From an uncultured Bacteroidota bacterium (GTDB lineage Bacteria > Bacteroidota > Bacteroidia > Bacteroidales > M50B96): DNA of 64,000 nt. Both the position numbers and the translations under genes were made by a program. Of this stretch, positions 19,957 to 60,785 are shown in pieces; position 1 is the first letter of the stretch, and each line of letters begins with the position of its first letter. The stretch spans positions 9,317 to 73,316 of the forward strand of contig CALGAK010000025.1 of assembly GCA_937954085.1 (NCBI GenBank), written 5' to 3'. Below the pieces are notes generated by a model. The model did no database searches. It was given only the letters and a program-made list of their open reading frames with translations, and was not told the origin of the DNA.

Positions 19957-19967
19957 ATCAAGAACTT

Positions 19968-20762: not shown

Positions 20763-20780
20763 ACTTTTCAACCATAACAC

Positions 20781-22766: not shown

Positions 22767-22820
22767 AACACTGCAAATCAAGACCTAAACCACACTGACT
22801 TAACAAAACAAACATAAGCT

Positions 22821-24623: not shown

Positions 24624-24635
24624 GGAATAAGATAA

Positions 24636-31198: not shown

Positions 31199-31241
31199 TT
31201 TAAGTGGTAAATTTAGGTGTTTGACCTAAAATTTGACAATC

Positions 31242-32348
31242 ATGAACGAGCCACTGAAAACCTTAGCAACATTTATTTTTTCCCTACGCGCTTATATGAC
31301 CAAAGCCAGACTCGAGTCTGAAGGAATTGAAGTATTCCTTATGAATGAAAATTTCCGGTATGGTGCTCATGTTAACATCGAAGAGGGAATTCAACTCAAA
31401 GTTAAAGAATCCGATTATCCTCGTGCCTTCAAAATCCTACAAGAGATTAGTCCGAATTTCCTACAGGGCAAGGAAGAACGCAGGCCGAAAGTAGAGAAAA
31501 TCCTGGTGCCGGTAGATTTTTCGCCAGTTAGTTTTAAATCGTGCTTATTTGCTATCGACTTGGCAAAACGATTCAATGCCTCCATTACCATGTTCCATGT
31601 TTACTACCTCCCATCGATCGATGCCGTTCTGGTAAATGAATCGGCACTCTATAATTTATCCATTTCCGAGCAAATGAATAATATTCAGAAGAATGCCGAA
31701 AGAAAGATGAACGATCTCATCGAGGCCATTAATCTTCAAGGAGATAAAGGTGTGAAGGTAAACTTTCAGTTTGCCAAAGGCTTTCCCGACGATGAGATTT
31801 TATCCTTTGTAGATAAAAACCGACCTGATTTGATCATCATGGGTAATTCAGCCCGACTAGGCAAAAGCAAAAAGTTATATGGCAGCATCACTTCGGAAGT
31901 AACTGAAAATGTAAAGATTCCAGTTATAGTCATTCCGGATGGGCACGAAGGAACCAGTCCTGAGAAAATTCATCGTGTTGCCTATGTGAGTAATTTCGAC
32001 AAAAGTGATATTCGACCGGTTCATAAACTGTTATACCTCTTAAGTCCTTTTAAAGTTCACCTAGAGTTGATCCATCTGAGTGAACGAGGCAGTGGGTTAA
32101 GCACAGAAGAGGAATACAATCGCTTAATAAAAGTAATAGAACAGGAGTTTAAAGGAGCGAACTTCCACCTTACCATTATTTCAGGAAGGGACACATTACT
32201 GCAGCTACAAGAATTTATTTATGAGCATGGCGTTGACTTATTGAGTATACAGGCGCAGAAAAGAAGCTTTTTTAGCCGACTTTTCCGAACCACCCTAAGC
32301 GACAAGTTGCTTTTCAATTCTAAAATTCCATTCCTAATTTATCATTAA
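31242..32348 (+). CDS. Universal stress protein with tandem Usp domains and an N-terminal DUF2007-like domain
   Basis: The N-terminal ~70 aa (…AYMTKARLESEGIEVFLMNEN…) resembles the DUF2007 putative signalling fold. Two UspA-like units follow (KILVPVDFSP… and …RVAYVSNFDKSD…). The start is the first ATG; the track uses TTG at 31233. Confidence 0.8.
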   Translation: MNEPLKTLATFIFSLRAYMTKARLESEGIEVFLMNENFRYGAHVNIEEGIQLKVKESDYPRAFKILQEISPNFLQGKEERRPKVEKILVPVDFSPVSFKSCLFAIDLAKRFNASITMFHVYYLPSIDAVLVNESALYNLSISEQMNNIQKNAERKMNDLIEAINLQGDKGVKVNFQFAKGFPDDEILSFVDKNRPDLIIMGNSARLGKSKKLYGSITSEVTENVKIPVIVIPDGHEGTSPEKIHRVAYVSNFDKSDIRPVHKLLYLLSPFKVHLELIHLSERGSGLSTEEEYNRLIKVIEQEFKGANFHLTIISGRDTLLQLQEFIYEHGVDLLSIQAQKRSFFSRLFRTTLSDKLLFNSKIPFLIYH

Positions 32349-33040
32349 CCAATTCGGCTTATTTCATTGAGAGCTGCAACATTGAGGACATCAATTGAAT
32401 CGCCGTTTACACGAATAATTTTATCGTCCTTGAACTGTTTTAAGATTCGAATGGCACTTTCCTTTGATAGAGCAGTCATATCGGCGAGCTCTTGGCGAGT
32501 AAGGGTCATTTTAAATGGGTTCTCCTGATAGATATCGTTCAAAAGATACAGTAGAGCATCGGCCACCCTTCCTGGCATTTGCTTTTGAGTGAGGCTGATA
32601 AACTTTTGGAAGTTATTCAGTGTATCGAGGTTAGAATTTTTATGTGCATCTACTGCGAAATCAGGATTTTCATTCATGACCTTTTTAAACACCCCCATTT
32701 CAATAAAGCATGCTTTAGAATCTTCGACTGCTCTCACTGTAAAATGATGTTTGAAGTCGGTGTATAATCCTGGCCCTCCCACAAACTCACCCGGTTTTAT
32801 GAGTTTTAAAATGATGTTACGATTATTAAACCCTTCGATATAAACCTTTGCAAGGCCGGAGGTAAACGACATGAGGTGCGTCATGGCTGTGCCCTGTTTA
32901 AAAATGATTTCACCGGCATAGTATCGAGCATCGTAGCGATGCTCATTGAACAGCTTTAACTCTTCTTTTGAAAGATTTGTAAAAACGGTCGATTTCTTAA
33001 TACAATCTAGGCAGTTACATGTAGTATTTACCATAAACAA
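32345..33040 (-). CDS. Crp/Fnr-family transcriptional regulator with FNR-like cysteine pattern
   Basis: A cNMP-binding-like beta-roll plus a C-terminal HTH (…LTRQELADMTALSKESAIRILKQF…). The N-terminal C8-x-C10-xx-C13 plus C111 resembles the 3+1 Cys ligand layout of FNR [4Fe-4S] sensors. Confidence 0.85.
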   Translation of the reverse strand: MFMVNTTCNCLDCIKKSTVFTNLSKEELKLFNEHRYDARYYAGEIIFKQGTAMTHLMSFTSGLAKVYIEGFNNRNIILKLIKPGEFVGGPGLYTDFKHHFTVRAVEDSKACFIEMGVFKKVMNENPDFAVDAHKNSNLDTLNNFQKFISLTQKQMPGRVADALLYLLNDIYQENPFKMTLTRQELADMTALSKESAIRILKQFKDDKIIRVNGDSIDVLNVAALNEISRIG

Positions 33041-33217
33041 TTATTTAATGTGCAAGATTACATGAATCTTGTATATCTAAAAAGCATCGAAACTCCCCTA
33101 AATATCTATATCTATGGACATTTCCATATCGAGCTCTTTACCCTCCAAGACGATGACAAAATACAATAATTTATTGATAAAAATAATTAAGGAGTTTGTT
33201 CTCTGACATTCGTTCGA

Positions 33218-33231
33218 TTGACTTAGGTCAA
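33218..33231. promoter_or_regulatory. Perfect FNR/CRP-type palindrome TTGAC-TTAG-GTCAA
   Basis: Extended perfect inverted repeat GATTGAC-TTAG-GTCAATC (33216-33233). It lies in the divergent region between the Crp/Fnr gene (-) and the first cytochrome gene (+). A TAnnTTTG -7-like box (TATTTTTG) sits at 33307-33314. Confidence 0.45.
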
Positions 33232-33349
33232 TCCTAAGCTGACATTTCTCATACGCCGCGTGAGTTATCTCATTAAGGTCAAACCCCCTATTCTTAGGCT
33301 ATTTGGTATTTTTGAGTCGCAACTTTAATCAATATTAAACTTTACGCTT

Positions 33350-33718
33350 ATGACAAGAAGAAAATCAACTTTACTTTGGACTTTGGCCTTGCTCTTGTTC
33401 GCAATCAGCTCTTGCGAGTACACCAACATTGAGCCCATCGAAGTAGTTTTACCCGATGAAAAAGTCTCCTTCAGCGAGGAAATTGCTCCCGTTTTAGCAT
33501 CCAAATGTGCCTCCTGCCACCAATCGGTTGCTCCTATTTTAAGTGCCGGTAACGAATACAACAATCTAATCAATGGTGGATACATTAACCTTGATGCACC
33601 CGCTGAAAGTATTCTTTACACGAAAACCTCTGGAGGTCATCCGGCAGGTAGCGGTTTAACAGCTACAGAACAAGCTATCATTCTTAAGTGGATTGAAGAA
33701 GGTGCTGAAAACAACTAA
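33350..33718 (+). CDS. Monohaem c-type cytochrome-domain lipoprotein (PSCyt1-like)
   Basis: Lipoprotein signal LLLFAISSC. It has a single CASCH haem-c motif in the context F-x-EEIAPVLASKCASCH, which resembles the 'IxPIL…CxxCH' Planctomycete-type cytochrome c domain. Confidence 0.65.
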   Translation: MTRRKSTLLWTLALLLFAISSCEYTNIEPIEVVLPDEKVSFSEEIAPVLASKCASCHQSVAPILSAGNEYNNLINGGYINLDAPAESILYTKTSGGHPAGSGLTATEQAIILKWIEEGAENN

Positions 33719-33751
33719 TCAAAATTGGTAAACACATTTAAGTAACAAACA

Positions 33752-34630
33752 ATGGGTACAATGAAGAAACTATTAACCTTACTAGTTATGGGGATATTGC
33801 TCGGAAGCAGTATGCTCACCTTTGCACAAGAGGAAAATGAAGAAAAAGATATGCGTCCGGTTCGTTTCGATTGGGCAACAACCATCCTTATCGATCACCA
33901 AACCGTGAAGAATCTTCCGCAAGGAACTTGGCAATACATGATTTACCACCGATTTGGTAAAATGGACAAAGGAATTTCCGATTTTTGGGGAATTTATGCT
34001 CCCTCCAACATTTCAATGGGAATCCACTATGGTATTACCAATAAGTTATCGGTAGGAATTAGTTCCGAGAAGAACAACAAACTTCAAAGCCTTAACTGGA
34101 AATACAATATCATTAACCAAACAAGGGGTGGAACCATTCCCGTGAGTGTTGCCTACGTCGGTAATATGAGCGTCGATACACGTCCTGATGAAGTTTTCGG
34201 TCAAAATTATGAACTAACCAACCGATTTTCCTACAACCACTCGCTTATCGTAGCCAGAAAATTCAATGATCGTTTAAGTTTACAAGCCGCTGTGGATTAC
34301 ACCCACTTTAATAGTGTGGAAGAACTCACTCGTCACGATGTTATTGCATGGCACTTAGGTGGTAGGTATCGTTTCATTGGAGAGAATTCAATTGTATTTG
34401 AGTACACAAGCCCGATGGACGTAAACCTAAACGGTTATTCAAACATTGATGAGTTCAATCCTCTTGCTGAACCAGGATTATCTTTCGGATGGGAATGGGG
34501 AACAAGTACTCACGCCTTCCAGTTCTTTGCCTCAACCTATGAGCACATTGTTGCACAAAAAAATATTGCCTTCAATAAAAATGAAATAGGCGACTTCTTA
34601 CTAGGATTCAATATCACTGTAAGATTCTAA
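33752..34630 (+). CDS. DUF5777-family beta-barrel protein (probable outer membrane)
   Basis: Signal peptide …SSMLTFAQ. It has the YHRFG…G…DFWG… and …HYGITNKLSVGISSE… pattern I associate with DUF5777, alternating beta-strand periodicity, and ends in …NITVRF (terminal aromatic). Confidence 0.7.
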   Translation: MGTMKKLLTLLVMGILLGSSMLTFAQEENEEKDMRPVRFDWATTILIDHQTVKNLPQGTWQYMIYHRFGKMDKGISDFWGIYAPSNISMGIHYGITNKLSVGISSEKNNKLQSLNWKYNIINQTRGGTIPVSVAYVGNMSVDTRPDEVFGQNYELTNRFSYNHSLIVARKFNDRLSLQAAVDYTHFNSVEELTRHDVIAWHLGGRYRFIGENSIVFEYTSPMDVNLNGYSNIDEFNPLAEPGLSFGWEWGTSTHAFQFFASTYEHIVAQKNIAFNKNEIGDFLLGFNITVRF

Positions 34631-34655
34631 ACCACCCGAAGGGGTGTTCATTTCA

Positions 34656-34690
34656 CCAATGGCAGTTTCTCAAAGCTGCCATTGGTTTTT
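34656..34690 (+). terminator. Terminator-like hairpin after the DUF5777 gene
   Basis: CCAATGGCAG-N10-CTGCCATTGG followed by TTTTT. A second small hairpin, CACCC-GAAG-GGGTG, lies just upstream. Confidence 0.5.
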
Positions 34691-34772
34691 AAACTAAGCT
34701 CAACAACTATTTATCATACCGAACTGAATTCCCGGACAAGAATTCAGAAACTAATTAACGAACCAAAAGCGA

Positions 34773-35747
34773 ATGAAAACACTAATTAATTTAAGCTTAT
34801 TAAGTTTGGTCGTTGCCCTTTTATGTTCAGCCAATATCCCGACTAACGATGAAATGGCAGTAGGCCAACCAAGCGAAGAGGTAATTGAAGCCAACAATTT
34901 GTGCTTCTCTTGCCACGGACAAAAACTCTTTACATACTATAATCCTGAACTCGACCGAGAGATAAAGGATAATATGTGTGACGAAAAAATTGTCAACGAA
35001 GAAAAATTCTACCTGAGTAATCACCGAACCTTCCAGTGTATTGGTTGCCATTCGGCCGATTATGAAAGCTTCCCCCACCCTGGCGAATTGCGGTTTGAAC
35101 AACAATATGCCTGCAACGACTGTCACGGTTACGACGATGATTGGGCTCATTTCAAATTCGATGAAATTGAAGAAGAGTTCATGAAATCCGTTCATTCCAC
35201 CAATCACGACGAAGCATTTACTTGCTGGATGTGTCACGACCCACACGAATATCATATCACCTATCGTAACGAAGAGAATCTGTTGAACACGATTGCCTAC
35301 GACAATGGTATTTGCCTCACCTGCCATGCCGATGTGAATCGTTACCAACTTTTAACCGATAAAGAAAAACCTAACGTAGATCAACAACACAGCTGGTTGC
35401 CCAACCAACAATTGCATTTTACTAAGGTTCGTTGCATCGAATGCCATGCAGAGCTTAACGACAATGTTCTAGTAGCTCATAATATTAGACCGAAAGAAGA
35501 AGCCGTAAAAAAATGTGTAGAATGTCATTCGAGCGATAGTCGATTAATGGCTTCTTTATACAGCCACACGGTTAAAACAGAACGTTGGTCGGGCGGATTT
35601 GTCAATGGAGAAATGGTTACGCAAGGTTTTGTTATTGGAGCTAACCGAAACAAATACCTGAACCAGGGCAGCTTGTATATCTTTCTGGGTACCTTAGCCA
35701 TTATCCTCATTCATTCAATTTTACGTGCAATTTATATTAAGAAATAA
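34773..35747 (+). CDS. Heptahaem c-type cytochrome with C-terminal membrane anchor
   Basis: Signal peptide plus seven CxxCH motifs (CFSCH, CIGCH, CNDCH, CWMCH, CLTCH, CIECH, CVECH). A C-terminal hydrophobic helix (LYIFLGTLAIILIHSILRAIY) is present. 324 aa. Confidence 0.85.
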   Translation: MKTLINLSLLSLVVALLCSANIPTNDEMAVGQPSEEVIEANNLCFSCHGQKLFTYYNPELDREIKDNMCDEKIVNEEKFYLSNHRTFQCIGCHSADYESFPHPGELRFEQQYACNDCHGYDDDWAHFKFDEIEEEFMKSVHSTNHDEAFTCWMCHDPHEYHITYRNEENLLNTIAYDNGICLTCHADVNRYQLLTDKEKPNVDQQHSWLPNQQLHFTKVRCIECHAELNDNVLVAHNIRPKEEAVKKCVECHSSDSRLMASLYSHTVKTERWSGGFVNGEMVTQGFVIGANRNKYLNQGSLYIFLGTLAIILIHSILRAIYIKK

Positions 35748-35748
35748 G

Positions 35749-36360
35749 ATGGGAACAAGAATTTATTTATATCCGGGTTGGTTAAGATTTTGGCATGCAA
35801 TTAATGCCCTGATGTGTTTGGTGCTGATAGTATCCGGACTTAGCATGCAGTACACCGATTTTGAACGCTACATTTTGGATTTCCAGTTAGCTGTTCAGCT
35901 ACACAATATTGCTGGTGTAATTCTATCCTTTAATTACTTCATTTTCCTCTTCGGGAACTTGTTTACACCCAATGGTCGCCAATACTTTTTATTTCGTCGC
36001 GGTGTTCTGAAAAACCTGTTTACACAGCTACACTATTATACCTTGGGAATCTTCAGAAAAGAAGCTACACCCTTCCCTATCACAACGGAAAATAAGTTCA
36101 ATCCTATTCAACGTACAGCCTACGTGTTGGTTGGATATGTTGCTACCATCATTGTTATCGTTACCGGATGGGCTTATCTATTTCCTGAAATCGTTCCAAA
36201 TACTATTGGGAATGTTAGTGGGCTTTTAATAAACGACCTAATTCATATCTCGATGGGGTATTTCATTTCGATCTTTCTGATCATTCATATTTACTTCATT
36301 ACGATTGGAAATACTAAGATGAAAAATTTCAAGAGCATGGTTACCGGTTGGCACGAGTAA
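35749..36360 (+). CDS. Membrane b-type cytochrome (PhsC / Ni-Fe-hydrogenase cytochrome b-like)
   Basis: Four TM helices carry conserved-looking His residues (RFWHAIN, QLHNIAG, LIHISMG, IIHIYF), consistent with two b haems. The ATG lies 2 nt after the heptahaem stop; the track ORF starts at 35725 in the overlap. Confidence 0.65.
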   Translation: MGTRIYLYPGWLRFWHAINALMCLVLIVSGLSMQYTDFERYILDFQLAVQLHNIAGVILSFNYFIFLFGNLFTPNGRQYFLFRRGVLKNLFTQLHYYTLGIFRKEATPFPITTENKFNPIQRTAYVLVGYVATIIVIVTGWAYLFPEIVPNTIGNVSGLLINDLIHISMGYFISIFLIIHIYFITIGNTKMKNFKSMVTGWHE

Positions 36361-36418
36361 GTGCCGATGCGTCCCTTTTGACTTTTTTCCATTACTCACT
36401 CAAACAAACAAACAAACT

Positions 36419-37387
36419 ATGACAGCGAAAAATGAAAGCCGCCGGAGCTTCCTGAAAGCCGGACTTTCGCTGAGTGCTGGCGCTGCTTTAGGCGCAGCTG
36501 CCCTCAGTGGAAGAGCCGATAGCATGGATGCTCCGTCTGAAAAAATTAAGTTGGTAACGGCCGATGGAAGAGTGATTGAGGTGGAGAAGTACGATTTATC
36601 GATCGACGACCGTAACCCGGCGAGCATTGAAAAGTCTCATTACGGACTACCCGGAAGGAAGTTTGTGATGGTCATTGACTTAGCAAAATGCAAAAATGCC
36701 AGGAAGTGTGTCGAAAAATGTCAAGAGGGACATTACTTACCAGAGGACCATGAGTGGTTGAATATTTATTTGCTGAAAGATAGTCCTGAAAGTGCACCCT
36801 ACTGGTTTCCGCGGCCCTGCTTTCAGTGCGATAATCCATTGTGCGTTAGTGTTTGCCCGGTAGGTGCAACCTTTAAACGAACCGATGGCATCGTTTTAGT
36901 CGATACCGACCGATGCATTGGATGCAAGTTTTGTATGACAGGATGTCCATATTCAGCGCGTGTTTTCCATTGGCATGAACCTGAAGTGGAGGTTCCCGAG
37001 GGTACCGTTTACAGTCCTGAAACGGCCTATCCTGCTGAAGAAGGAACAGTTGGGAAATGTGTTTTTTGTGCCGATTTACTGCGTAAGAACGAACTACCTC
37101 GCTGCGTTGTAGCTTGTCCGGAAGGGGTCATCTATTTTGGCGATTTGAATGAAGACACAGTGACTAATGGTGTGGAAACCATGGTTTTTAGCGAATTGAT
37201 AAAAAACCGATCCGGTTATCGATACCATGAAGATTTAGGAACACGCCCAAGTGTTTATTATCTACCTCCGGTAGACAGACTCTACGAGGTAGAGGAAGGT
37301 TTCTCCCTTCATGCTGAGAATCCTGAGATCCTAGAGCGATACAAGAACACTGAAACCTACAAAAAATACTTTGGCGATGGACATTAA
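36419..37387 (+). CDS. Tat-exported 4x[4Fe-4S] ferredoxin subunit (NrfC/PsrB/DsrO-like)
   Basis: Twin-arginine signal SRRSFLKAG. Cys clusters CKNARKCVEKC, CFQCDNPLCVSVCP, CIGCKFCMTGCP and CVFCADL…CVVACP. 322 aa. Confidence 0.85.
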   Translation: MTAKNESRRSFLKAGLSLSAGAALGAAALSGRADSMDAPSEKIKLVTADGRVIEVEKYDLSIDDRNPASIEKSHYGLPGRKFVMVIDLAKCKNARKCVEKCQEGHYLPEDHEWLNIYLLKDSPESAPYWFPRPCFQCDNPLCVSVCPVGATFKRTDGIVLVDTDRCIGCKFCMTGCPYSARVFHWHEPEVEVPEGTVYSPETAYPAEEGTVGKCVFCADLLRKNELPRCVVACPEGVIYFGDLNEDTVTNGVETMVFSELIKNRSGYRYHEDLGTRPSVYYLPPVDRLYEVEEGFSLHAENPEILERYKNTETYKKYFGDGH

Positions 37388-38708
37388 TAACACCCTTACC
37401 ATTGATGGAGCAATCAAGGAATTCGCTCCTCAAATAGAGAAAACCTCCCCACTAGGTTGGTCGTGGATTACTTTCCTGTCGGTTCTGGTCTTATTCGGGT
37501 TCTATGGATTATACACTCAAATAGCCGAAGGGCACATCGTTACCGGTATGCGCGACAATGTTGTATGGGGAATCTATATTGTTAACTTCATCTTCTTCAT
37601 GGGAGTTAGCTACGCTGGAGCACTCATTTCCGGAACCTTGCATCTCTTTCGATCCGAATGGAGAAAGCCCGTTATCCGGATGGCTGAGTGGATTACGATT
37701 ATTTCTCTTTTAATAGGCCCATTGTATATTCTTTTGTGTATCGGACGACTCGACAAATTGCATAATATAGCCTTGTTTGGTAGGATTCAATCGCCCATTA
37801 CATGGGACGTTATTGCAATCTCGACGGATATTGTAGGATGTATCATCTTCCTCTACATGGCTCTTTTACGCGATTTTGCTCACTTAAGAGATTATCCGGA
37901 ATTGAAAGTTCCCAAATGGAAAAAGAAACTCTATTATTATTTCGCTCTCAAGTACCATGATACCCCGGAACAACGGAAAAAATTAAACCGGACGGTCGAT
38001 ATCATGGCTGCGATGGTCATTGCGATTGCCATTATTGTGTACTCGGTACTTGCATGGATTTTCAGTGTTACCCTCCAACCAGGTTGGCACAGCACTATTT
38101 TTGGGCCCTATTTCGTAATTGCTGCTGTCTATTCTGGCACAGCTGTACTCATTGTGAGCATGTATTTATTCCGCAAGGTATACAAGTTAGAACATGTCAT
38201 AACCGAGCTTCATTTCAAGAACATGGGAATCATTCTCCTGGTGTTAGGAGCATTTTTTGGTTACTTCACCTTCTCTGAGTATCTCACGAAATGGTATGGA
38301 TCGCAAAAGAACGATGAATTACTAATCAGTATCTTATTCGACAAATATTATTGGGAATTTGTGATCTCAAATTATATTGGTGTTCTTTTACCTCTAATCA
38401 TTATAGGAATACCAAAGTTTAGGACCATTAAGTCTATTACATTTACCTCGTTGGTAGTGATATTAGCCTTGTGGCTAAATCGTTATCTTATTGTGGTTCC
38501 TACGCTTGAATCCCCTTATTTACCTATTCAAGACAGTCGCAGTGCATGGGTTGATTATGGCGGGACATGGGTCGAATGGTCGCTTACCCTGGGCGGGATA
38601 GCCGGTTTTTTGCTCTTATTTACTTTAGCGTCCAAGCTAGTTCCGATTGTGCAGCTTTCGGCTTTGGTCAAAAAAGATAAGTCGGAAGAGAATCGAAAAT
38701 CGGAGTAA
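37377..38708 (+). CDS. NrfD/PsrC-family polytopic quinone-interacting membrane subunit
   Basis: ~440 aa with about 10 TM helices. The N-terminal region …GHIVTGMRDNVVWGIYIVNFIFFMGVSYAGALISG is typical of NrfD-like proteins. The ATG overlaps the FeS gene stop by 11 nt, which suggests translational coupling. Confidence 0.8.
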   Translation: MDINNTLTIDGAIKEFAPQIEKTSPLGWSWITFLSVLVLFGFYGLYTQIAEGHIVTGMRDNVVWGIYIVNFIFFMGVSYAGALISGTLHLFRSEWRKPVIRMAEWITIISLLIGPLYILLCIGRLDKLHNIALFGRIQSPITWDVIAISTDIVGCIIFLYMALLRDFAHLRDYPELKVPKWKKKLYYYFALKYHDTPEQRKKLNRTVDIMAAMVIAIAIIVYSVLAWIFSVTLQPGWHSTIFGPYFVIAAVYSGTAVLIVSMYLFRKVYKLEHVITELHFKNMGIILLVLGAFFGYFTFSEYLTKWYGSQKNDELLISILFDKYYWEFVISNYIGVLLPLIIIGIPKFRTIKSITFTSLVVILALWLNRYLIVVPTLESPYLPIQDSRSAWVDYGGTWVEWSLTLGGIAGFLLLFTLASKLVPIVQLSALVKKDKSEENRKSE

Positions 38709-38740
38709 TTAGTTTTTTAATCAACTTAAGCCCAGGAACT

Positions 38741-39619
38741 ATGAAAACGAAAATATTTTTTATCATCGCCAGTTTACTCCTTCCATTTGGAATGAAGCTG
38801 GCTGCAAGCGAACCCTACTCGTTAAGCTTTTACCTTGAATATCGGAAGTTAGCCGAAGGTGAGCGAAAAATATCGGCAACGGCTAAGTATAAACCCGACC
38901 GATTCTGGGAGGTAATACAAGGGATGAAGGTAGAGTTCTATTACTTAAACGAAGAAGGAGATGAAGTCCTTTTGGCCGATGGTATAACCGACGAAAAAGG
39001 AACAGCCAGCATCCTTATTGATCCTGAATATCCTTTATATCGAAATGAGGAAGGGTTAATCGAATTTGTTGCAAGAACCGAAGAAACCGAAAAATATGAG
39101 CTTGCGGAGGAATGGCTCTCTATTCGAGATATATATCTAGAAATGAAGCTAATTGAAGATGGCGACGAACGAACCATTGAATTACATGCAGAAGTTTTAG
39201 ATGAAAACGGAGAGCTTGTCCCCTTATCCGACGAGGATATCTATTTTTCAGTCCCACGGATGTTTAGTAAACTTCCACTTGGAGAAGAAACGCTAGAAGA
39301 TGGCTTCTGTTCCATAACATTTCCAGCGAATATCGTTGGGAATGCTGAACGAGAAGTAACTATATTAGCGGAGATTTTTGAGCATTATGAATTTGGAACC
39401 GTTCAAGCGAGTAAGGTTTCCACTTGGGGAAAACTCGGTAGTCCTCACTTAATTGAACATCCTTCCCGGGAGCTTTGGACACCCGTTGCACCATTATGGA
39501 TGATTATCACCCTGATTGTGCTTTTGGTTGGAGTTTGGGGACATTATATTTACGCAATTGTGCAACTGGTTCTGATTCGGAAAGCAGGCACAAGATTTGA
39601 AAGAGAACAACAGGTTTAA
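38741..39619 (+). CDS. Hypothetical acidic periplasmic protein with C-terminal TM anchor
   Basis: Signal peptide, then a Glu/Asp-rich beta-rich body with Ig-like repeats (…KGTASILIDPEY…). It ends in a TM helix (LWMIITLIVLLVGVWGHYIYAIVQLVLI). I recognise no family. It is embedded in the cytochrome operon. Confidence 0.5.
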   Translation: MKTKIFFIIASLLLPFGMKLAASEPYSLSFYLEYRKLAEGERKISATAKYKPDRFWEVIQGMKVEFYYLNEEGDEVLLADGITDEKGTASILIDPEYPLYRNEEGLIEFVARTEETEKYELAEEWLSIRDIYLEMKLIEDGDERTIELHAEVLDENGELVPLSDEDIYFSVPRMFSKLPLGEETLEDGFCSITFPANIVGNAEREVTILAEIFEHYEFGTVQASKVSTWGKLGSPHLIEHPSRELWTPVAPLWMIITLIVLLVGVWGHYIYAIVQLVLIRKAGTRFEREQQV

Positions 39620-39657
39620 AACCGACTATTAATTATTAACACTTAAAACGAAAAACT

Positions 39658-40056
39658 ATGAAAACTAGAATTCTTAGCATTTTTGCGCTAGTAATGGTTA
39701 GCATGCTCGTTGTAGGCTTTATGCCCAGCGCCCAAGACGGATGGGACATTCCGGAAAAGTATCAGAAAATGAAAAACACCCTAGAACCAAACGATGAGAA
39801 CATCGCAATTGGTAAGAAACTGTATAACAAGCATTGTCGTTCTTGCCATGGAACCAAAGGCTTAGCCGATGGACCGAAAGCTGCCAACATGAGAACTCCT
39901 ATGAGAAGCCTTGCTGGTGCCGAATACAAAGCTCAGTCGGATGGCGTGAAGTATTACAAATCGTTTGTTGGGAAAGATGAAATGCCCAACTTCGAAAAGA
40001 AAATCACCGAGGAAGAAGATCGTTGGGCTATTATTAATTACATGGAAACTTTATAG
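39658..40056 (+). CDS. Class I monohaem cytochrome c
   Basis: Signal peptide, a single CRSCHG motif in the context GKKLYNKHCRSCHG, and a distal Met candidate (…KDEMPNF…). 132 aa. Confidence 0.8.
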   Translation: MKTRILSIFALVMVSMLVVGFMPSAQDGWDIPEKYQKMKNTLEPNDENIAIGKKLYNKHCRSCHGTKGLADGPKAANMRTPMRSLAGAEYKAQSDGVKYYKSFVGKDEMPNFEKKITEEEDRWAIINYMETL

Positions 40057-40086
40057 TGTTTTCATAACTAACTAGCTGTTAGATAA

Positions 40087-40119
40087 AGAGGATGTCGAAT
40101 GACATCCTCTTTTTTTTTT
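40087..40119 (+). terminator. Rho-independent terminator closing the cytochrome/NrfCD operon
   Basis: Perfect 10-bp stem AGAGGATGTC-GAAT-GACATCCTCT followed by 9 T. Confidence 0.75.
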
Positions 40120-40190
40120 CAATCCATGATGATATTTGCTAAGCCTTGAGAAAGACTAAATTAACTAGCTGATTGAATTCGCTATCCTCA

Positions 40191-40204
40191 TTGATAAATA
40201 TCAT
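40191..40204. promoter_or_regulatory. FNR-consensus-like palindrome TTGAT-AAAT-ATCAT
   Basis: One mismatch to TTGAT-N4-ATCAA. It lies about 100 nt upstream of the hexahaem lipoprotein ATG. A TAnnTTTG -7-like box (TATTTTTG) sits at 40259-40266. Confidence 0.45.
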
Positions 40205-40303
40205 TTAAAACAGCATGCATCTCACCTTCCGGGAACTCAGAAACAGCAAGCATTCCTCTATTTTTGAACCGGACATTATAATCATTAACTTAATTTTATT
40301 GAG

Positions 40304-41314
40304 ATGAAAAAAATTCTGACTTTATTGACCAGCAGCTTGTTTTTAGCAGGCATGGTTTTTACCAGTTGCGAAGGACCTCAGGGGCCCGAAGGACCGCAAG
40401 GACCAGCAGGTGAAATTGGAGCTTTAACTTGTGTGGAATGCCACGACTTCAGCACCGATTTATTTGCAAAAGTTTTACAGTACGAAAATTCCACCCACGT
40501 AACCGGTGGAAACTACAATCGTAACTACGGCGAATGTGCAATTTGCCATACACACGAAGGTTATATTGATAACTTAGAAACCGGTGCTGGTACTTCCGAT
40601 GCTGCTTTAGTTAATACTACTCACATTAACTGCCGCACTTGCCACATGATCCATGAGAACTACGATGCAACCGACTGGGATTTACGCGAAACTGAAGCAA
40701 CCACCTTCTTTACAGGTGTTGCAGCTCCCGACATGGGAACCGGTAATCAGTGTGCTTCTTGCCACAAATCTCGTGCTTACGACGTTCCTGAAATTGGCGG
40801 ACCCGATGTTGAGATTACCAGCAGCCGTTATGGCCCACACTATGGTGTTCAAACCGATATGATGGCTAGCCATGGCTTATATGAATTCCCTGGCAGTTTA
40901 AGCTATCCGAGTAACAATCCTCACGGAAACCTTGCTAACGGTTGTGTTAGTTGTCATATGGCTCCCGGATATGTTGACCAATCAGGCGGACACACCTTCA
41001 CAATGAGAAATGAATCAGAAGCGTTGAATATGACCAGCTGTACCGATTGCCACGGTAGCCTTACTTCTGAAGATGTAGATGCTTTCCAAGCTGAAATTCA
41101 TGTTTTATATGATTCATTATTCAACACCCTAGTTGCTAAAGGCTTAATGAATGAAACAACTGGTTTAGTTGTTACTGGAACAGTATCGGGTAGCGAAGCT
41201 GCTGCTATCGCTAACTATCGTACCATTTATGGCGACCATAGTTTTGGTCTTCACAACCCAGGTTACATTAAAGCTATCCTAAACAATACCTTAGAAGCTG
41301 CTCAAGATTTCTAA
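40304..41314 (+). CDS. Hexahaem c-type cytochrome lipoprotein with collagen-like Gly-X-Y linker
   Basis: Lipobox MVFTSC, then GPQGPEGPQGPAGEIG (five G-X-Y triplets). Six CxxCH motifs follow (CVECH, CAICH, CRTCH, CASCH, CVSCH, CTDCH). 336 aa, monocistronic, between two terminators. Confidence 0.85.
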   Translation: MKKILTLLTSSLFLAGMVFTSCEGPQGPEGPQGPAGEIGALTCVECHDFSTDLFAKVLQYENSTHVTGGNYNRNYGECAICHTHEGYIDNLETGAGTSDAALVNTTHINCRTCHMIHENYDATDWDLRETEATTFFTGVAAPDMGTGNQCASCHKSRAYDVPEIGGPDVEITSSRYGPHYGVQTDMMASHGLYEFPGSLSYPSNNPHGNLANGCVSCHMAPGYVDQSGGHTFTMRNESEALNMTSCTDCHGSLTSEDVDAFQAEIHVLYDSLFNTLVAKGLMNETTGLVVTGTVSGSEAAAIANYRTIYGDHSFGLHNPGYIKAILNNTLEAAQDF

Positions 41315-41336
41315 TCGAAAATCTCTAAACGATTCA

Positions 41337-41371
41337 ATCCCGAATGCCTTCGCATTCGGGATTTTTTTTTT
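41337..41371 (+). terminator. Rho-independent terminator after the hexahaem cytochrome gene
   Basis: Perfect 11-bp stem ATCCCGAATGC-CTTC-GCATTCGGGAT followed by about 10 T. Confidence 0.75.
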
Positions 41372-41452
41372 CAAAAAAAAATTAAACAACCTTTCAAGTT
41401 ATAATTCCTATCCTACATTTGCATCGTTGTTGCATTTAAAAACGCATTGCAA

Positions 41453-41887
41453 ATGAAACCTATTGACATCTTAAACGAAACCCATCTCAAACGAACCAGC
41501 TGTAGAGAGGGAATTTTAAAAGTAATGCTTGAATCGAATGAGGCACTTTCCGAGAACGAGATACGGGAGCGCTTGGAAGGTAACTACGATCGAACGACCT
41601 TCTATCGATCATTCAAAACCTTGGAAGAGAACCACATCGTGCACAAAATTATAATCGATGCCAGTCTTACCAAGTATGCTCTTGAAGAACAGTATCTGGA
41701 AATAGGTCCGTTACATTCAGAGAAAGAAACAACATCGATGCATGCTCATTTTCATTGTCAGCAATGCAATACGGTAAAATGCATTCCATTAAAAGACTGT
41801 CCTACCCCTGTGCTGCCAGAAGGCTACCTCATCGATCATTTTGAATTAATCGTAAAGGGAACGTGCCAACTATGCAATTTGAATTAA
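41453..41887 (+). CDS. Fur-family metalloregulator (Fur/Zur type not resolvable)
   Basis: Winged-helix N-terminus (…RTSCREGILKVMLES…LSENEIRERL…DRTTFYRSFKTLEE…) and C-terminal HAHFHCQQC…CQLC metal sites. The first ATG was chosen; the track uses TTG at 41447. The stop lies 1 nt before the next gene. Confidence 0.8.
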   Translation: MKPIDILNETHLKRTSCREGILKVMLESNEALSENEIRERLEGNYDRTTFYRSFKTLEENHIVHKIIIDASLTKYALEEQYLEIGPLHSEKETTSMHAHFHCQQCNTVKCIPLKDCPTPVLPEGYLIDHFELIVKGTCQLCNLN

Positions 41888-41888
41888 G

Positions 41889-44285: not shown

Positions 44286-44316
44286 AACAAACAGCTAGTT
44301 ATACAAATCAAATCAG

Positions 44317-46560: not shown

Positions 46561-46615
46561 TAAAACTTTAGTACATCTATAAACAAATCAGTATTAATCT
46601 AAAACCTTAACAACG

Positions 46616-47062
46616 ATGAATTTAAGTATTCGATTTTTCTTGAGTGCCGCACTTTTAATCAGCTTGTTCACTTCATGTAATGAAGATGATGCCACTCGAC
46701 AACCGGTTATCACCCTAAGCGAATTAGGAATGGAGAATTCGAAGCAGGCCTATATCGGCGACGAGTTGCATATTGAAGCTAGTATTTTAGCCGAAAATGG
46801 GATTGAGCAAATTGAGTTAAGCATTCATCCCGAAGGACTTACCATCCATAAGCAATTGCAAAATAGCTTCGATTCGGGTTGGGAGTTGGATACAGTTTTT
46901 ACCGATTACACGGGGCTAAAGAATACCGAGTTTCACGAACACTTTGATATTCCTTTCACTGCCGTGCCCGGTCTTTATCATTTTCATTTGATTGTTACCG
47001 ACACCGAGGGGTATCAGGCTCACAGCGAAGAGGAACTTTTACTGCTAGCACCCCAAGACTAA
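46616..47062 (+). CDS. DUF4625-like lipoprotein
   Basis: Lipobox LFTSC followed by acidic NEDDA. Ig-like body with …IGDELHIEASI…IEQIELSIHPE…FHEHFDIP…GLYHFHLIVTD. It accompanies the TonB-dependent receptors. Confidence 0.65.
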   Translation: MNLSIRFFLSAALLISLFTSCNEDDATRQPVITLSELGMENSKQAYIGDELHIEASILAENGIEQIELSIHPEGLTIHKQLQNSFDSGWELDTVFTDYTGLKNTEFHEHFDIPFTAVPGLYHFHLIVTDTEGYQAHSEEELLLLAPQD

Positions 47063-47075
47063 TTCAGATAAACTA

Positions 47076-60720: not shown

Positions 60721-60785
60721 AGGATTTCCATCACGATCCAGGAAAATTGCTCCGTGAATTCGATATCTTTAGGCAAATTTTTTTT

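What the first reader, a model, noticed from the sequence alone, without database searches (positions are those of the whole stretch)
32345..41371. FNR-linked redox island with 15 haem-c motifs, a cytochrome b, an NrfC/NrfD pair and an outer-membrane barrel, but no catalytic subunit
Seen in the sequence: nine consecutive plus-strand genes (33350-41314) lie next to a divergent Crp/Fnr gene. They encode a monohaem lipoprotein (1 CxxCH), a DUF5777 beta-barrel, a heptahaem cytochrome with a C-terminal anchor (7 CxxCH) and a 4-His membrane cytochrome b. They also encode a Tat-signal 4-cluster ferredoxin, an NrfD-like 10-TM protein, an unknown anchored acidic protein, a class I cytochrome c (1 CxxCH) and a hexahaem lipoprotein (6 CxxCH). 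Established knowledge: NrfC/NrfD modules (Psr, Ttr, Nrf, Dsr, Qrc, ACIII) normally come with a catalytic partner such as a molybdopterin subunit, NrfA or DsrMK. I see none here. Inference: the components are predicted to span the inner membrane (cytochrome b, NrfD), the periplasm (FeS protein, cytochromes c) and the outer membrane or lipoprotein layer (DUF5777, two lipoprotein cytochromes). That layout fits an anaerobically induced trans-envelope electron conduit of an architecture I do not recognise from Mtr/Pcc, ACIII or Qrc systems. It could act in extracellular or periplasmic metal or other acceptor reduction, or in donor oxidation. The iron-themed neighbours (a Fur operon and feoAB) are compatible with this but prove nothing.
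Basis: partly seen in the sequence, partly recalled or inferred. Interest (0 to 1): 0.8.

Follow-up and report, generated by a model that had tools for sequence, protein, structure and literature searches.

The report
FNR-controlled Bacteroidota cytochrome electron-export cluster

Summary
Nine plus-strand genes (33350-41314) lie next to a divergent Crp/Fnr gene. They hold all 15 CxxCH motifs found in the six frames of the 64-kb window. No catalytic subunit is present here or beside 80 related loci.

The cluster is co-conserved: 50 of 79 related loci hold all nine genes, and at least 584 species-level genomes carry the NrfD-like gene.

It breaks into modules:
- **g3-g4** match the architecture of Geobacter CbcA/CbcB, a characterised low-potential quinol oxidase for extracellular electron transfer.
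- **g5-g6-g7** are a Tat-exported FeS protein, an ActC-like (alternative complex III type) membrane subunit, and a new subunit with two Ig-like domains.
- **g8** is a His/Met cytochrome c.
- **g9-g1-g2** are an MtrC-domain hexahaem lipoprotein, a monohaem lipoprotein and a 12-stranded DUF5777 barrel.

FNR boxes sit upstream of the cluster in 43 of 59 loci, against 0.06 expected. Relatives add ImcH-like cytochromes and one cytochrome with a type IX secretion tail.

The best reading is an anaerobically induced, menaquinol-fed electron-export chain. The barrel is too small for an Mtr-type conduit, so how or whether electrons cross the outer membrane is open. I class it as a new variant of a known kind. 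Interest is about 0.6.

The parts
32345..33040 (-). Crp/Fnr-family regulator, divergent from the cluster. N-terminal Cys cluster (C8/C10/C13) plus C111.
   Evidence: Pfam cNMP_binding and HTH_Crp_2. NCBIfam FnrL and Fnr-like below cut-off. C10, C13 and C111 invariant in 57 homologues; a third N-terminal Cys is present in all rows inspected, at varying positions. An fnr homologue was found in 59 of 79 related loci.
33218..33231 (.). FNR-type box TTGACTTAGGTCAA. It is the core of a perfect 7+7 inverted repeat, GATTGAC-N4-GTCAATC, and starts 132 nt upstream of the g1 ATG.
   Evidence: A TTGAY-N4-RTCAA box (at most 1 mismatch) lies within 300 nt upstream of the first cluster gene in 43 of 59 related loci, against 0.063 expected per 300 nt.
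33350..33718 (+). g1: monohaem c lipoprotein (CASCH). Conserved C-E-Y-(D/E)-x-I-x-P after the lipid Cys, then a Pro-rich linker.
   Evidence: motif. (lipobox Cys 98%, CxxCH 100%); the distal ligand column is Met in most homologues and His97 here. Weak NCBIfam hit to the LIC11213 lipoprotein family. Always immediately upstream of g2.
33752..34630 (+). g2: DUF5777 outer-membrane beta-barrel with 12 strands.
   Evidence: Pfam PF19089, 2e-68. AlphaFold2 model pLDDT 89.8 with 12 long strands. Foldseek best matches are 12-14-stranded barrels: FapF, NanC/KdgM, Tsx, OmpG.
34773..35747 (+). g3: heptahaem cytochrome c with a C-terminal membrane helix carrying an invariant His314 (CbcA-like).
   Evidence: Seven CxxCH in 68 of 68 homologues. 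Eight conserved distal His (seven invariant, H145 93%) and an invariant H314 in the transmembrane helix. The architecture matches the description of Geobacter CbcA.
35725..36360 (+). g4: four-helix dihaem cytochrome b (CbcB/PhsC/HydC type). Overlaps g3 by 23 nt.
   Evidence: Pfam Ni_hydr_CYTB 1e-23. NCBIfam thiosulfate-reductase cytochrome b, 141 bits. His24, 60, 174, 188 and 210 conserved at 97% or more.
36419..37387 (+). g5: Tat-exported four-cluster-type FeS protein (NrfC/DsrO/ActB2-like) with 15 invariant Cys.
   Evidence: PsrB 6.6e-26; ActB C-terminal domain 5.6e-17. Motif I is Cx5Cx3C and lacks the second Cys. RRxFLK invariant.
37371..38708 (+). g6: 10-helix NrfD-family membrane subunit of the ActC type. 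The database protein starts two codons later, at 37377.
   Evidence: Profile against PDB: ACIII ActC 1.6e-65 over the full length, ActF weak, PsrC not hit. Fourteen of 23 ActC signature residues are kept, including the gate Arg. His139 becomes Cys123 and Asp253 becomes Ile230, both invariant. About 70% identity across Bacteroidota.
38741..39619 (+). g7: new acidic subunit. N-terminal hydrophobic helix, two Ig-like beta-sandwich domains, and a C-terminal membrane helix with an almost fully invariant GVWGHY motif.
   Evidence: No Pfam or PDB sequence hit. Annotated 'hypothetical' wherever a source names it. AlphaFold2 pLDDT 90. Foldseek finds only generic Ig and macroglobulin domains. The family has 1113 clusters at 50% identity. 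One protein, P0433, fuses a g6-like NrfD to g7. Always follows g6.
39658..40056 (+). g8: class I monohaem cytochrome c with His/Met ligation; periplasmic carrier.
   Evidence: Pfam Cytochrom_C and CBB3. CxxCH and the Met-Pro ligand motif are invariant in 73 homologues.
40085..40112 (+). Intrinsic terminator-like hairpin (12 bp stem plus T-run) after g8.
40191..40204 (.). Second FNR-type box, TTGATAAATATCAT (1 mismatch), starting 113 nt upstream of the g9 ATG.
   Evidence: It is one of only four sites in the window with at most 1 mismatch.
40304..41314 (+). g9: hexahaem lipoprotein with an MtrC/MtrF-type pentahaem domain. A collagen-like G-P-x spacer follows the lipid Cys.
   Evidence: Six CxxCH. 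Six conserved candidate distal His, so all hemes could be bis-His. Pfam Mtrc-MtrF_II-IV_dom 34.7 bits, above the 30-bit cut-off. Conserved C-T-K-E-G-P-Q-G-P N-terminus in homologues. In most relatives it is the first gene of the operon, directly before g1-g2.
41336..41363 (+). Intrinsic terminator-like hairpin ending the cluster.

Best explanation
This is a conserved Bacteroidota respiratory gene cluster, activated at low oxygen by an FNR-type regulator. It most likely moves electrons from the menaquinol pool out to the cell envelope or surface.

Proposed path:
1. Two inner-membrane quinol:cytochrome c oxidoreductases take electrons from menaquinol. One is a CbcA/CbcB-like heptahaem c plus dihaem b pair (g3-g4). 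The other is a stripped-down relative of alternative complex III: a Tat-exported FeS protein (g5), an ActC-like subunit (g6) and a new Ig-domain subunit (g7).
2. The small His/Met cytochrome c (g8) carries electrons across the periplasm.
3. An outer-membrane module receives them: an MtrC-domain hexahaem lipoprotein (g9), a monohaem lipoprotein (g1) and a 12-stranded DUF5777 barrel (g2).
4. The final acceptor is probably extracellular or poorly permeant: Fe(III), Mn(IV/III), or humic or other redox-active matter.

Shown: gene content, cofactor motifs, folds, co-conservation, modular structure and conserved FNR boxes.

Inferred: direction of electron flow, quinol as donor, subunit contacts, surface exposure of g9 and g1, and the acceptor.
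For: Cofactors and families.

Co-conservation: the nine genes recur together in 50 of 79 loci, and at least 584 species genomes carry the NrfD-like gene. The usual order in relatives is fnr, g9, g1, g2, g8, g3, g4, g5, g6, g7.

Modularity:
- g9-g1-g2 is tandemly duplicated in L080 and L082.
- g5-g6-g7 is duplicated in L076 and L079.
- L084, L085, L034 and L037 lack g3-g4 but keep the rest in the window's order.

Links to extracellular electron transfer:
- g3-g4 match the published CbcA/CbcB architecture. The authors state that homologous cbcBA clusters occur in Bacteroidetes (Prolixibacter, Marinilabiliales, Labilibaculum) as a possible marker.
- Seventeen related loci carry ImcH-type cytochromes within 5 kb: three transmembrane helices, CX3CH and six CX2CH.
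- L063 has a neighbouring 8-haem MtrC-domain cytochrome with a type IX secretion sorting tail.

Other support:
- g6 is ActC-like and keeps most proposed proton-path residues, including the gate Arg.
- P0433 fuses the NrfD-like protein to g7.
- All six g9 hemes have a conserved candidate distal His, which fits electron transfer rather than catalysis.
- FNR boxes lie upstream in 43 of 59 loci, against 0.063 expected.
- No catalytic enzyme gene lies nearby.
- Judging by the sample names in the record titles, the source habitats are anoxic, Fe/Mn/humic-rich waters (my inference).
- Identity falls from inner-membrane parts (71%, 60%) to outer parts (32-35%).
Against: - No experiment exists for any of these proteins.
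- The barrel has only 12 strands. It cannot sheath a cytochrome as MtrB or OmbB do, and one haem (g1) cannot bridge an outer membrane. The export step is therefore unexplained.
- g8 and most g1 homologues are His/Met cytochromes. Such cytochromes are usually high-potential and are also typical of aerobic chains and of Fe(II) oxidation.
- The seven-gene variant occurs on 6-8 Mb contigs, a genome size more typical of aerobic soil Bacteroidota than of strict anaerobes (my inference).
- Homology of g3-g4 to Geobacter GSU0594/0593 rests on architecture and a statement in a paper, not on a direct alignment made here.
- Surface exposure of g9 and g1 is inferred only from N-terminal motifs.
Confidence: 0.55

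Rival explanations
1. A purely periplasmic chain. All the cytochromes face the periplasm, with g9 and g1 tethered to the inner leaflet of the outer membrane. The DUF5777 barrel is simply a channel that admits a small soluble acceptor, such as chelated Fe(III), Mn(III)-ligand complexes, small quinones or a redox shuttle. The acceptor is reduced at the g1 or g9 hemes, possibly at the mouth of the barrel in the manner of a split Cyc2.
For: - A 12-stranded barrel of the FapF/NanC/Tsx/OmpG class is the size of a small-solute or peptide channel.
- g1 is always directly upstream of g2.
- A second g1-like plus DUF5777 set occurs elsewhere in L049.
- No large porin and no periplasmic decahaem cytochrome is present.
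Against: - The related locus L063 encodes a cluster-adjacent multihaem cytochrome with a type IX secretion tail, which implies surface export.
- g9 carries the domain typical of surface cytochromes of the MtrC family.
- g9 also has a conserved C-T-K-E motif plus a collagen-like spacer, which would suit a surface lipoprotein. That reading comes from my own knowledge of Bacteroidota lipoprotein export signals.
Confidence: 0.2
2. Electron uptake or donor oxidation. The outer module oxidises Fe(II) or another extracellular donor. Electrons then flow inward through g8 to a terminal oxidase or reductase encoded elsewhere. The membrane complexes run in reverse or act as a branch.
For: - A monohaem cytochrome plus a small barrel recalls the Cyc2 iron oxidase (my recollection, not tested here).
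- g8 and most g1 homologues are His/Met cytochromes.
- FNR-type regulators also switch on micro-oxic respiration.
- CbcL-type quinol oxidases occur in both iron reducers and iron oxidisers.
Against: - ImcH-type cytochromes, found beside the cluster in 17 loci, have been reported only from Fe(III) reducers.
- CbcBA is a quinol oxidase for low-potential acceptors.
- The hosts look like organotrophic Bacteroidales or Prolixibacteraceae, which would have no evident need for reverse electron flow (my inference).
- No oxidase, carbon-fixation or nitrate-reductase genes are linked.
Confidence: 0.1
3. A general quinol:cytochrome c oxidoreductase. This would be an alternative-complex-III substitute feeding soluble cytochrome c for micro-oxic or denitrifying respiration. 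The outer-membrane genes would have an accessory or unrelated role.
For: - g6 is most similar to ActC of ACIII.
- g8 is a class I cytochrome c of the type that feeds oxidases.
- The seven-gene variant is present on 6-8 Mb contigs.
Against: - The FeS, NrfD and g7 genes are always linked with the DUF5777 barrel and the lipoprotein cytochromes, including in the seven-gene variant.
- No oxidase, nir or nos genes are adjacent.
- The ActC quinol-site residues His139 and Asp253 are replaced in every member. This is therefore a distinct subfamily, not an ACIII orthologue.
Confidence: 0.1
4. A remnant or satellite of a sulfur-compound or other molybdoenzyme reductase (Psr, Phs or Ttr type) whose catalytic subunit is encoded elsewhere or has been lost.
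For: The cytochrome b resembles the PhsC thiosulfate-reductase subunit (141 bits). The FeS protein resembles PsrB, TtrB and NrfC.
Against: - No molybdopterin gene lies in or near any of 80 loci.
- g6 matches ActC and not PsrC.
- Motif I of the FeS protein lacks a Cys in all members. By my recollection of four-cluster proteins, that motif ligates the cluster facing the catalytic subunit in molybdoenzymes.
- Very high conservation (about 70% for g6) and intact cofactor motifs argue against decay.
Confidence: 0.03

Closest known systems
Geobacter sulfurreducens CbcBA (Cbc5; GSU0593-0594), a low-potential menaquinol oxidase for extracellular electron transfer
   Same: A heptahaem c-type cytochrome anchored by a C-terminal helix that carries a His, followed by a four-helix dihaem b subunit annotated as 'thiosulfate reductase-like'. 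The gene order is the same, A then B. The authors note homologous clusters in Bacteroidetes.
   Different: Here the pair is embedded in a nine-gene cluster and sits under an FNR-type regulator rather than sigma-54/BccR. It is dispensable for the core, because the seven-gene variant lacks it. No direct alignment to the Geobacter proteins was possible.
Alternative complex III (ActABCDEF), solved for Rhodothermus marinus and Flavobacterium johnsoniae
   Same: g6 aligns over its full length with ActC (191 bits as a single sequence, 225 bits as a profile). It has 10 helices and keeps most proton-path residues and the gate Arg. g5 resembles the FeS half of ActB. A monohaem cytochrome c is encoded alongside.
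   Different: - No molybdopterin-like ActB1 domain.
- No second NrfD subunit (ActF).
- No pentahaem ActA.
- No sequence match of g7 to any solved chain, ActD included.
- The quinol-site residues His139 and Asp253 are replaced by an invariant Cys and Ile.
- A new Ig-domain subunit is present instead.
Cytochrome-linked FeS/NrfD complexes without a catalytic subunit: Desulfovibrio Nhc and Qrc; Geobacter Cbc4 (CbcSTU)
   Same: A periplasmic four-cluster FeS protein plus an integral membrane subunit, working with c-type cytochromes only. These complexes are thought to link the quinone pool with periplasmic cytochromes.
   Different: The partner cytochromes differ: nine-haem NhcA, tetrahaem NapC-type CbcS, hexahaem QrcA. 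None of them has the g7 subunit or an outer-membrane module in the same operon. NCBIfam DsrO and DsrP were the best named hits but fell below their cut-offs. No QrcD model appeared among the g6 hits at E <= 0.01.
Porin-cytochrome conduits (Shewanella MtrCAB, Geobacter Pcc/Ext)
   Same: The gene triplet runs lipoprotein multihaem cytochrome, second cytochrome, outer-membrane barrel (g9-g1-g2, compared with mtrC-mtrA-mtrB). g9 carries the MtrC/MtrF domain II/IV.
   Different: The barrel has 12 strands, against about 26 for MtrB by my recollection. The 'inner' cytochrome is a single-haem lipoprotein of about 100 residues rather than a decahaem wire. The Mtr mechanism cannot apply as such.
Cyc2 fused monohaem cytochrome-porin of iron oxidisers
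   Same: One c-type haem is associated with a small outer-membrane barrel.
   Different: Here they are two separate genes. g1 is a lipoprotein. The barrel has 12 strands rather than the roughly 16 predicted for Cyc2 (my recollection). No sequence comparison could be made with the tools at hand.

Membership tests
Geobacter-type CbcBA quinol oxidase | Seven-haem c-type cytochrome anchored by a C-terminal transmembrane helix that provides a His | tested here: met
   Seven CxxCH in 68 of 68 homologues. Invariant His314 inside the C-terminal helix. Feature as described.
Geobacter-type CbcBA quinol oxidase | Adjacent four-helix dihaem b-type subunit of the HydC/PhsC ('thiosulfate reductase-like') type | tested here: met
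   PF01292 at 1e-23. NCBIfam PhsC 141 bits, below the equivalog cut-off. Conserved His24, 60, 174 and 188.
Geobacter-type CbcBA quinol oxidase | Significant direct sequence similarity to GSU0594/GSU0593 | not testable with these tools
The only support is the statement by Joshi et al. that homologues exist in Prolixibacter, Marinilabiliales and Labilibaculum.
Geobacter-type CbcBA quinol oxidase | Sigma-54/BccR-dependent regulation | tested here: not met
   Here there is a divergent Crp/Fnr gene and conserved FNR boxes.
Alternative complex III | ActC-type 10-helix NrfD subunit carrying the ActC signature residues (more than 95% conserved in ActC) | tested here: inconclusive
   The best PDB matches are ActC chains. 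Only 14 of 23 signature residues are identical. The quinol-site residues His139 and Asp253 are replaced by an invariant Cys123 and Ile230.
Alternative complex III | ActB with an N-terminal molybdopterin-like domain fused to the FeS domain | tested here: not met
   g5 is 322 aa and consists of the FeS domain only. It aligns only to residues 796-993 of ActB.
Alternative complex III | Second NrfD-like subunit (ActF) and pentahaem ActA | tested here: not met
   There is one NrfD gene per module and no five-haem cytochrome with an N-terminal anchor.
Complex iron-sulfur molybdoenzymes and Nrf (Psr/Phs/Ttr/Dms/NrfABCD) | A catalytic subunit (Mo-bisPGD protein or NrfA) encoded with the FeS and NrfD subunits | tested here: not met
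   None is found in the window or within 6 kb of the cluster in the related loci. The recurrent large neighbours and ten others were scanned with Pfam and none is a molybdoenzyme. PsrC is not matched by the g6 profile.
Mtr/Pcc porin-cytochrome conduit | A large outer-membrane barrel (about 20 strands or more) enclosing a periplasmic multihaem cytochrome | tested here: not met
   The g2 model has 12 strands (pLDDT 89.8) and its best structural matches are 12-14-stranded barrels. The adjacent cytochrome g1 has one haem.
Mtr/Pcc porin-cytochrome conduit | Outer-surface multihaem lipoprotein of the MtrC/OmcA family | tested here: inconclusive
   g9 is a lipoprotein and hits Mtrc-MtrF_II-IV_dom above the gathering score (34.7 against 30). 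It has only six hemes and one such domain, and its localisation is untested.
FNR (oxygen-sensing Crp/Fnr regulators) | N-terminal Cys cluster plus a central Cys for a [4Fe-4S] centre, and TTGAT-N4-ATCAA target sites | tested here: met
   C10, C13 and C111 are invariant, and a third N-terminal Cys is present in every row inspected (C8 in the window, two residues after C13 in most others). Boxes lie upstream of the cluster in 43 of 59 loci against 0.063 expected, and at two sites in the window. Cluster binding and oxygen sensing themselves are untested.
ImcH inner-membrane cytochrome (in related loci only) | About 500 aa, three N-terminal transmembrane helices, an atypical CX3CH next to them, and six CX2CH | tested here: met
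   Twenty-two ORFs in 17 distinct related loci show all four features (features as defined). The window itself has no such gene.

The most novel reading that the evidence does not exclude
The cluster encodes two previously undescribed machines.

(1) A minimal alternative-complex-III derivative. The ActC-like subunit works with a stand-alone FeS protein and a new Ig-domain membrane subunit (g7) in place of ActB1, ActA and ActF.

(2) A new kind of outer-membrane electron gate. A 12-stranded DUF5777 barrel, a monohaem lipoprotein and an MtrC-domain hexahaem lipoprotein pass electrons to the cell exterior without a cytochrome-in-porin wire. If so, many Bacteroidota in anoxic waters and sediments would have a phylum-specific route for metal or humic respiration.
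Probability: 0.35. Interest if true: 0.8.

Novelty: new variant of a known kind. Interest (0 to 1): 0.62.

Why it matters
Bacteroidota are abundant degraders of organic matter in anoxic lakes, sediments, soils and digesters, and they are usually treated as fermenters.

A conserved, FNR-controlled cytochrome chain occurs in hundreds of their species. It has recognisable relatives of the Geobacter quinol oxidases (CbcBA here, plus ImcH in related loci). If it works as proposed, many of these organisms can respire Fe, Mn, humic matter or electrodes. That would change carbon and metal budgets for these habitats.

The cluster also offers two defined new parts for study:
- g7, a family of about 1100 clusters at 50% identity with no annotation;
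- the DUF5777 barrel paired with a monohaem lipoprotein.

According to the literature, cultured genera (Prolixibacter, Labilibaculum) carry the CbcBA-like pair, and MAGs assigned to Prolixibacter and Draconibacterium carry the cluster. The hypothesis may therefore be directly testable by genetics.

Tried and rejected
- **Literature.** Full-text searches gave nothing on this cluster. Terms tried: DUF5777; Bacteroidota with porin-cytochrome; type IX secretion with multihaem; Labilibaculum, multiheme and cbcA; Bacteroidales, EET and hypolimnion. Papers on lake and reactor extracellular electron transfer do not describe it. The Lentimicrobium 'giant PCC cluster' is a different system.
- **Sequence search of solved structures.** g3, g4, g7 and g9 gave no usable relatives.
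- **Fold search for g7.** It returned only generic Ig and macroglobulin domains with low TM-scores, so no specific function could be drawn from it.
- **Sigma-70 promoter scan.** Uninformative: fewer hits than in shuffles. From my own knowledge, Bacteroidota promoters also differ from the sigma-70 consensus.
- **FNR consensus in the window alone.** At 2 mismatches or fewer it is not enriched (76 hits against 68 expected). Only the position-specific, cross-locus test is significant.
- **A large gene recurrently downstream (about 1240 aa).** I considered it as a hidden catalytic partner. It is a histidine kinase followed by GidA, so this is plain synteny. Other large neighbours are TonB receptors, the ResB/CcsA cytochrome-maturation protein, peptidases, UvrA and the like.
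- **Horizontally acquired 'island'.** G+C of the cluster is 0.39-0.43, like the rest of the window. I saw no mobility genes among the neighbours I scanned.

Full report
**Observation.** The region holds ten ORFs exactly as described. A Crp/Fnr gene lies on the minus strand (32345-33040), followed by nine plus-strand genes (33350-41314). Counting CxxCH in all six frames of the 64-kb window gives 15 motifs. All 15 lie in four of these genes: g1 has 1, g3 has 7, g8 has 1 and g9 has 6. The concentration of haem motifs is therefore far beyond chance.

Profile searches confirm each assignment:
- g2 is DUF5777 (2e-68).
- g4 is a prokaryotic cytochrome b561/HydC-type protein. It is closest to the PhsC model but below its cut-off.
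- g5 is a four-cluster-type ferredoxin with a Tat motif.
- g6 is an NrfD-family protein.
- g7 matches nothing.
- g8 is a class I cytochrome c.
- g9 contains the MtrC/MtrF domain II/IV, above Pfam's gathering score.

The gaps between genes are short or negative, with two exceptions. There are 142 nt before g3. There are 247 nt before g9, which contain a strong terminator-like hairpin (40085-40112) and an FNR-like box. A second hairpin (41336-41363) closes the cluster.

**Conservation.** The g6 protein has more than 3300 database relatives, and the best 120 are all about 70% identical. A scan of one genome per species found at least 584 genomes with a relative. The 80 closest are almost all metagenome-assembled Bacteroidales or Bacteroidota. 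They include Prolixibacteraceae, Draconibacterium, Lentimicrobiaceae, Tangfeifania and Prolixibacter. Their isolate names point to stratified lakes, the Black Sea at 150 and 750 m, fen and groundwater. The window itself is 99% identical to a contig of 'Bacteroidales bacterium M50B96'.

Mapping the window's proteins onto these loci shows that all nine genes travel together. Fifty of 79 loci have all nine, and most of the rest are truncated contigs. The commonest order is fnr, g9, g1, g2, g8, g3, g4, g5, g6, g7. The window differs only in placing g8 and g9 at the end.

The cluster is modular:
- g9-g1-g2 is tandemly duplicated in L080 and L082.
- g5-g6-g7 is duplicated in L076 and L079.
- L034 and L037 lack g3-g4.
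- Two very large contigs (6.2 and 8.1 Mb) carry a seven-gene version in the window's own order, fnr | g1 g2 g5 g6 g7 g8 g9, without g3-g4.

The window is thus the core system plus an inserted g3-g4 pair. Median identity to the window falls from the inner-membrane parts (g6 71%, g5 60%, g3 50%, g4 49%) to the outer parts (g7 35%, g1 34%, g2 33%, g9 32%).

**No catalytic partner.** Within 6 kb of the clusters, the unassigned haem proteins are further cytochromes. The recurrent large neighbours are a histidine kinase and GidA. Others are TonB-dependent receptors, the ResB/CcsA cytochrome-maturation fusion, peptidases and so on. No molybdopterin enzyme, NrfA-type enzyme or DsrK-type enzyme occurs among them.

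The premise needs softening, however. FeS/NrfD modules that work only with cytochromes are already known: Nhc, Qrc, ACIII and Geobacter Cbc4.

**The g3-g4 pair.** Across 68 homologues, g3 keeps all seven CxxCH. It also keeps eight conserved distal His (seven invariant, one at 93%) and an invariant His314 inside its C-terminal membrane helix. g4 keeps His24, His60, His174 and His188 in its helices.

This is the architecture published for Geobacter CbcA/CbcB. CbcA is a seven-haem cytochrome anchored by a C-terminal helix that appears to donate a His to a b haem. CbcB is a four-helix dihaem b subunit usually annotated as 'thiosulfate reductase-like'. The same paper states that homologous cbcBA clusters occur in Bacteroidetes (Prolixibacter, Marinilabiliales, Labilibaculum) and proposes them as a marker of extracellular electron transfer. 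I could not align g3 and g4 to the Geobacter proteins directly, so membership rests on architecture plus that statement.

**The g5-g6-g7 module.** A profile of g6 relatives matches only alternative-complex-III chains in the PDB. ActC matches over the full length (1.6e-65), ActF matches weakly, and PsrC does not match at all.

I mapped the ActC residues listed by Calisto and Pereira through the HMMER alignment. Fourteen of 23 are identical in g6, including Asp169, Ser164 and the proposed gate Arg395. His139 and Asp253 of the quinol pocket are replaced by Cys123 and Ile230 in all 80 sequences. g6 is therefore a distinct ActC-like subfamily, not an ACIII orthologue.

g5 is only the FeS half of an ActB-like protein. 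It has 15 invariant Cys, and its first motif lacks the second Cys found in PsrB and ActB. This suggests one three-Cys cluster, but that is an inference.

g7 is annotated 'hypothetical' wherever a source names it. A confident model (pLDDT 90) shows two Ig-like beta-sandwiches between an N-terminal hydrophobic helix and a long C-terminal helix bearing an almost fully invariant GVWGHY motif. Fold search finds only generic Ig domains. It has no cofactor motif, so it is a scaffold rather than an enzyme. The family comprises 1113 clusters at 50% identity. One member, P0433, is a single 740-residue protein joining a g6-like NrfD (59% identical) to g7. That fusion is topologically sensible and argues that the two proteins form one complex. 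It is a single case and could be an assembly artefact.

**The outer module.** g2 models confidently as a 12-stranded barrel. It resembles FapF, NanC/KdgM, Tsx and OmpG. That is far too narrow to enclose a cytochrome as MtrB does.

g1 is a lipoprotein of about 100 residues with one haem. Its distal-ligand column is Met in most homologues and His in the window. After the lipid Cys it has a conserved C-E-Y-(D/E)-x-I-x-P segment and a Pro-rich linker.

g9 is a lipoprotein whose six hemes each have a conserved candidate distal His, so no open catalytic site is apparent. Its homologues begin with C-T-K-E-G followed by collagen-like G-P-x repeats. From my own knowledge, acidic residues just after the lipid Cys act as a surface-export signal in Bacteroidota. 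Whether that applies here is untested.

**Support from relatives.**
- Seventeen distinct loci carry one or two ORFs of about 500 residues within 5 kb of the cluster. Each has three N-terminal helices, an FCGxLCH (CX3CH) motif and six CX2CH. These are the diagnostic features of ImcH, the Geobacter quinol oxidase for high-potential extracellular acceptors, so far reported only from Fe(III) reducers.
- L063 has an eight-haem MtrC-domain cytochrome with a type IX secretion sorting tail beside the cluster. That implies export to the cell surface.
- The window's organism has type IX secretion cargo elsewhere.

**Regulation.** The regulator keeps C10, C13 and C111, plus a third N-terminal Cys in every row inspected. 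This fits an FNR-like iron-sulfur sensor.

The divergent intergenic region contains GATTGAC-TTAG-GTCAATC (33211-33238, core 33218-33231). A one-mismatch TTGAT-N4-ATCAA site lies before g9. On its own the window count is not significant.

The cross-locus test is. In 43 of 59 related loci, a box with at most one mismatch lies within 300 nt upstream of the first cluster gene. The background rate is 0.063 per 300 nt. Low-oxygen induction is therefore well supported by sequence, though not by expression data.

**Mechanism.** The best-supported reading is an anaerobically induced chain running from menaquinol to the envelope.
1. Electrons leave the quinol pool through the CbcAB-like pair and/or the FeS/ActC-like/g7 complex.
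2. They pass through cytochrome c g8.
3. They reach the lipoprotein cytochromes g9 and g1, which are associated with the DUF5777 barrel.
4. They end on an extracellular or poorly permeant acceptor.

Having several alternative quinol oxidases in one locus parallels Geobacter, where ImcH, CbcL and CbcBA serve different acceptor potentials.

The weak point is the last step, because a 12-stranded barrel and a single haem cannot form a wire across the outer membrane. Three possibilities remain:
- g9 and g1 are surface lipoproteins reached in some new way.
- The barrel admits a soluble acceptor to periplasm-facing hemes.
- The barrel helps export or anchor the lipoproteins.

The His/Met hemes of g8 and g1 would also fit inward electron flow from Fe(II). 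I rank that lower because of the ImcH and CbcBA links and the apparently organotrophic hosts.

**Comparison and novelty.** The cluster is not ACIII, not a molybdoenzyme operon and not an Mtr/Pcc conduit (see the membership tests). Its parts come from known families. The combination, the g7 subunit and the DUF5777-plus-monohaem-lipoprotein module are not described in any paper I could find. Only the CbcBA-like pair has been noted in Bacteroidetes, in one sentence.

I class it as a new variant of a known kind, namely multi-module cytochrome chains for electron export. The chance that the outer module is a truly new mechanism is moderate.

**Verdict.** Interest is 0.62.

Noticed in passing
L049:12216-13721 (-); also L003:12510-14057, L010, L013-L015, L017, L025, L033, L040, L041, L044, L051, L060, L063, L081: ImcH-like inner-membrane cytochromes lie beside the cluster in 17 related loci, sometimes in two copies. 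They are about 500 aa, with three N-terminal helices, a CX3CH motif 'FCGxLCH' and six CX2CH. The window has none.
   Followed up: partly
L063:3856-5370 (+): An eight-haem cytochrome with an MtrC/MtrF domain and a type IX secretion C-terminal sorting tail lies 600 nt from the cluster. I found no paper linking type IX secretion to multihaem cytochromes.
   Followed up: partly
P0433 (740 aa; no locus fetched): A single ORF fuses a g6-like NrfD protein (59% identical) to a g7-like protein. It is either a true gene fusion or an assembly or frameshift artefact. Only one such cluster appeared among the best 150.
   Followed up: partly
L049:15352-18813 (-): A second, separate DUF5777 barrel gene lies in an operon with a YceI-like protein, a small unknown protein, a g1-like monohaem protein and a 335-aa protein. 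The 335-aa protein is made of about three g1-like (LIC11213-type) cytochrome domains. Pairing of the barrel with g1-type cytochromes is therefore not restricted to this cluster.
   Followed up: no
L084 and L085 (8.1-Mb and 6.2-Mb contigs of sample ERZ25072999): A seven-gene version of the cluster without the CbcAB-like pair sits in very large genomes. In L084 it lies next to the ResB/CcsA cytochrome-maturation gene. The organisms were not identified.
   Followed up: partly
window 41447-47573: A Fur-family regulator is followed on the same strand by two TonB-dependent receptors and two DUF4625 proteins. This is probably a metal-uptake operon directly downstream of the cluster. TonB receptors also neighbour the cluster in L008 and L035.
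   Followed up: partly
window 51821-54316: A single 831-aa ORF fuses FeoA to FeoB (ferrous iron transporter).
   Followed up: no
window 54528-63161: A 1250-aa Sortilin/BNR/GEVED-domain protein and two trypsin-like proteases with type IX secretion sorting tails. These show that the organism uses type IX secretion.
   Followed up: no
window 18349-25787: A leucine or acyclic-terpene catabolism cluster: carboxyltransferase, enoyl-CoA hydratase, biotin carboxylase, AtuA and acyl-CoA dehydrogenase.
   Followed up: no
L065 (SACF01000001.1): A contig labelled 'Alphaproteobacteria bacterium' carries the full Bacteroidales-type cluster, with an NrfD-like protein 74% identical to the window's. It is probably a mis-binned or mislabelled genome.
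   Followed up: no
window 37371-37377: The longest ORF for g6 starts at TTG 37371. The identical database protein (P0001, 443 aa) starts two codons later at the ATG, so the true start is probably 37377.
   Followed up: no
window 31233-32348: A universal-stress-protein gene with a DUF2007 domain converges on the fnr gene and overlaps its 3' end by 4 nt. It also flanks fnr in the near-identical contig L004.
   Followed up: no
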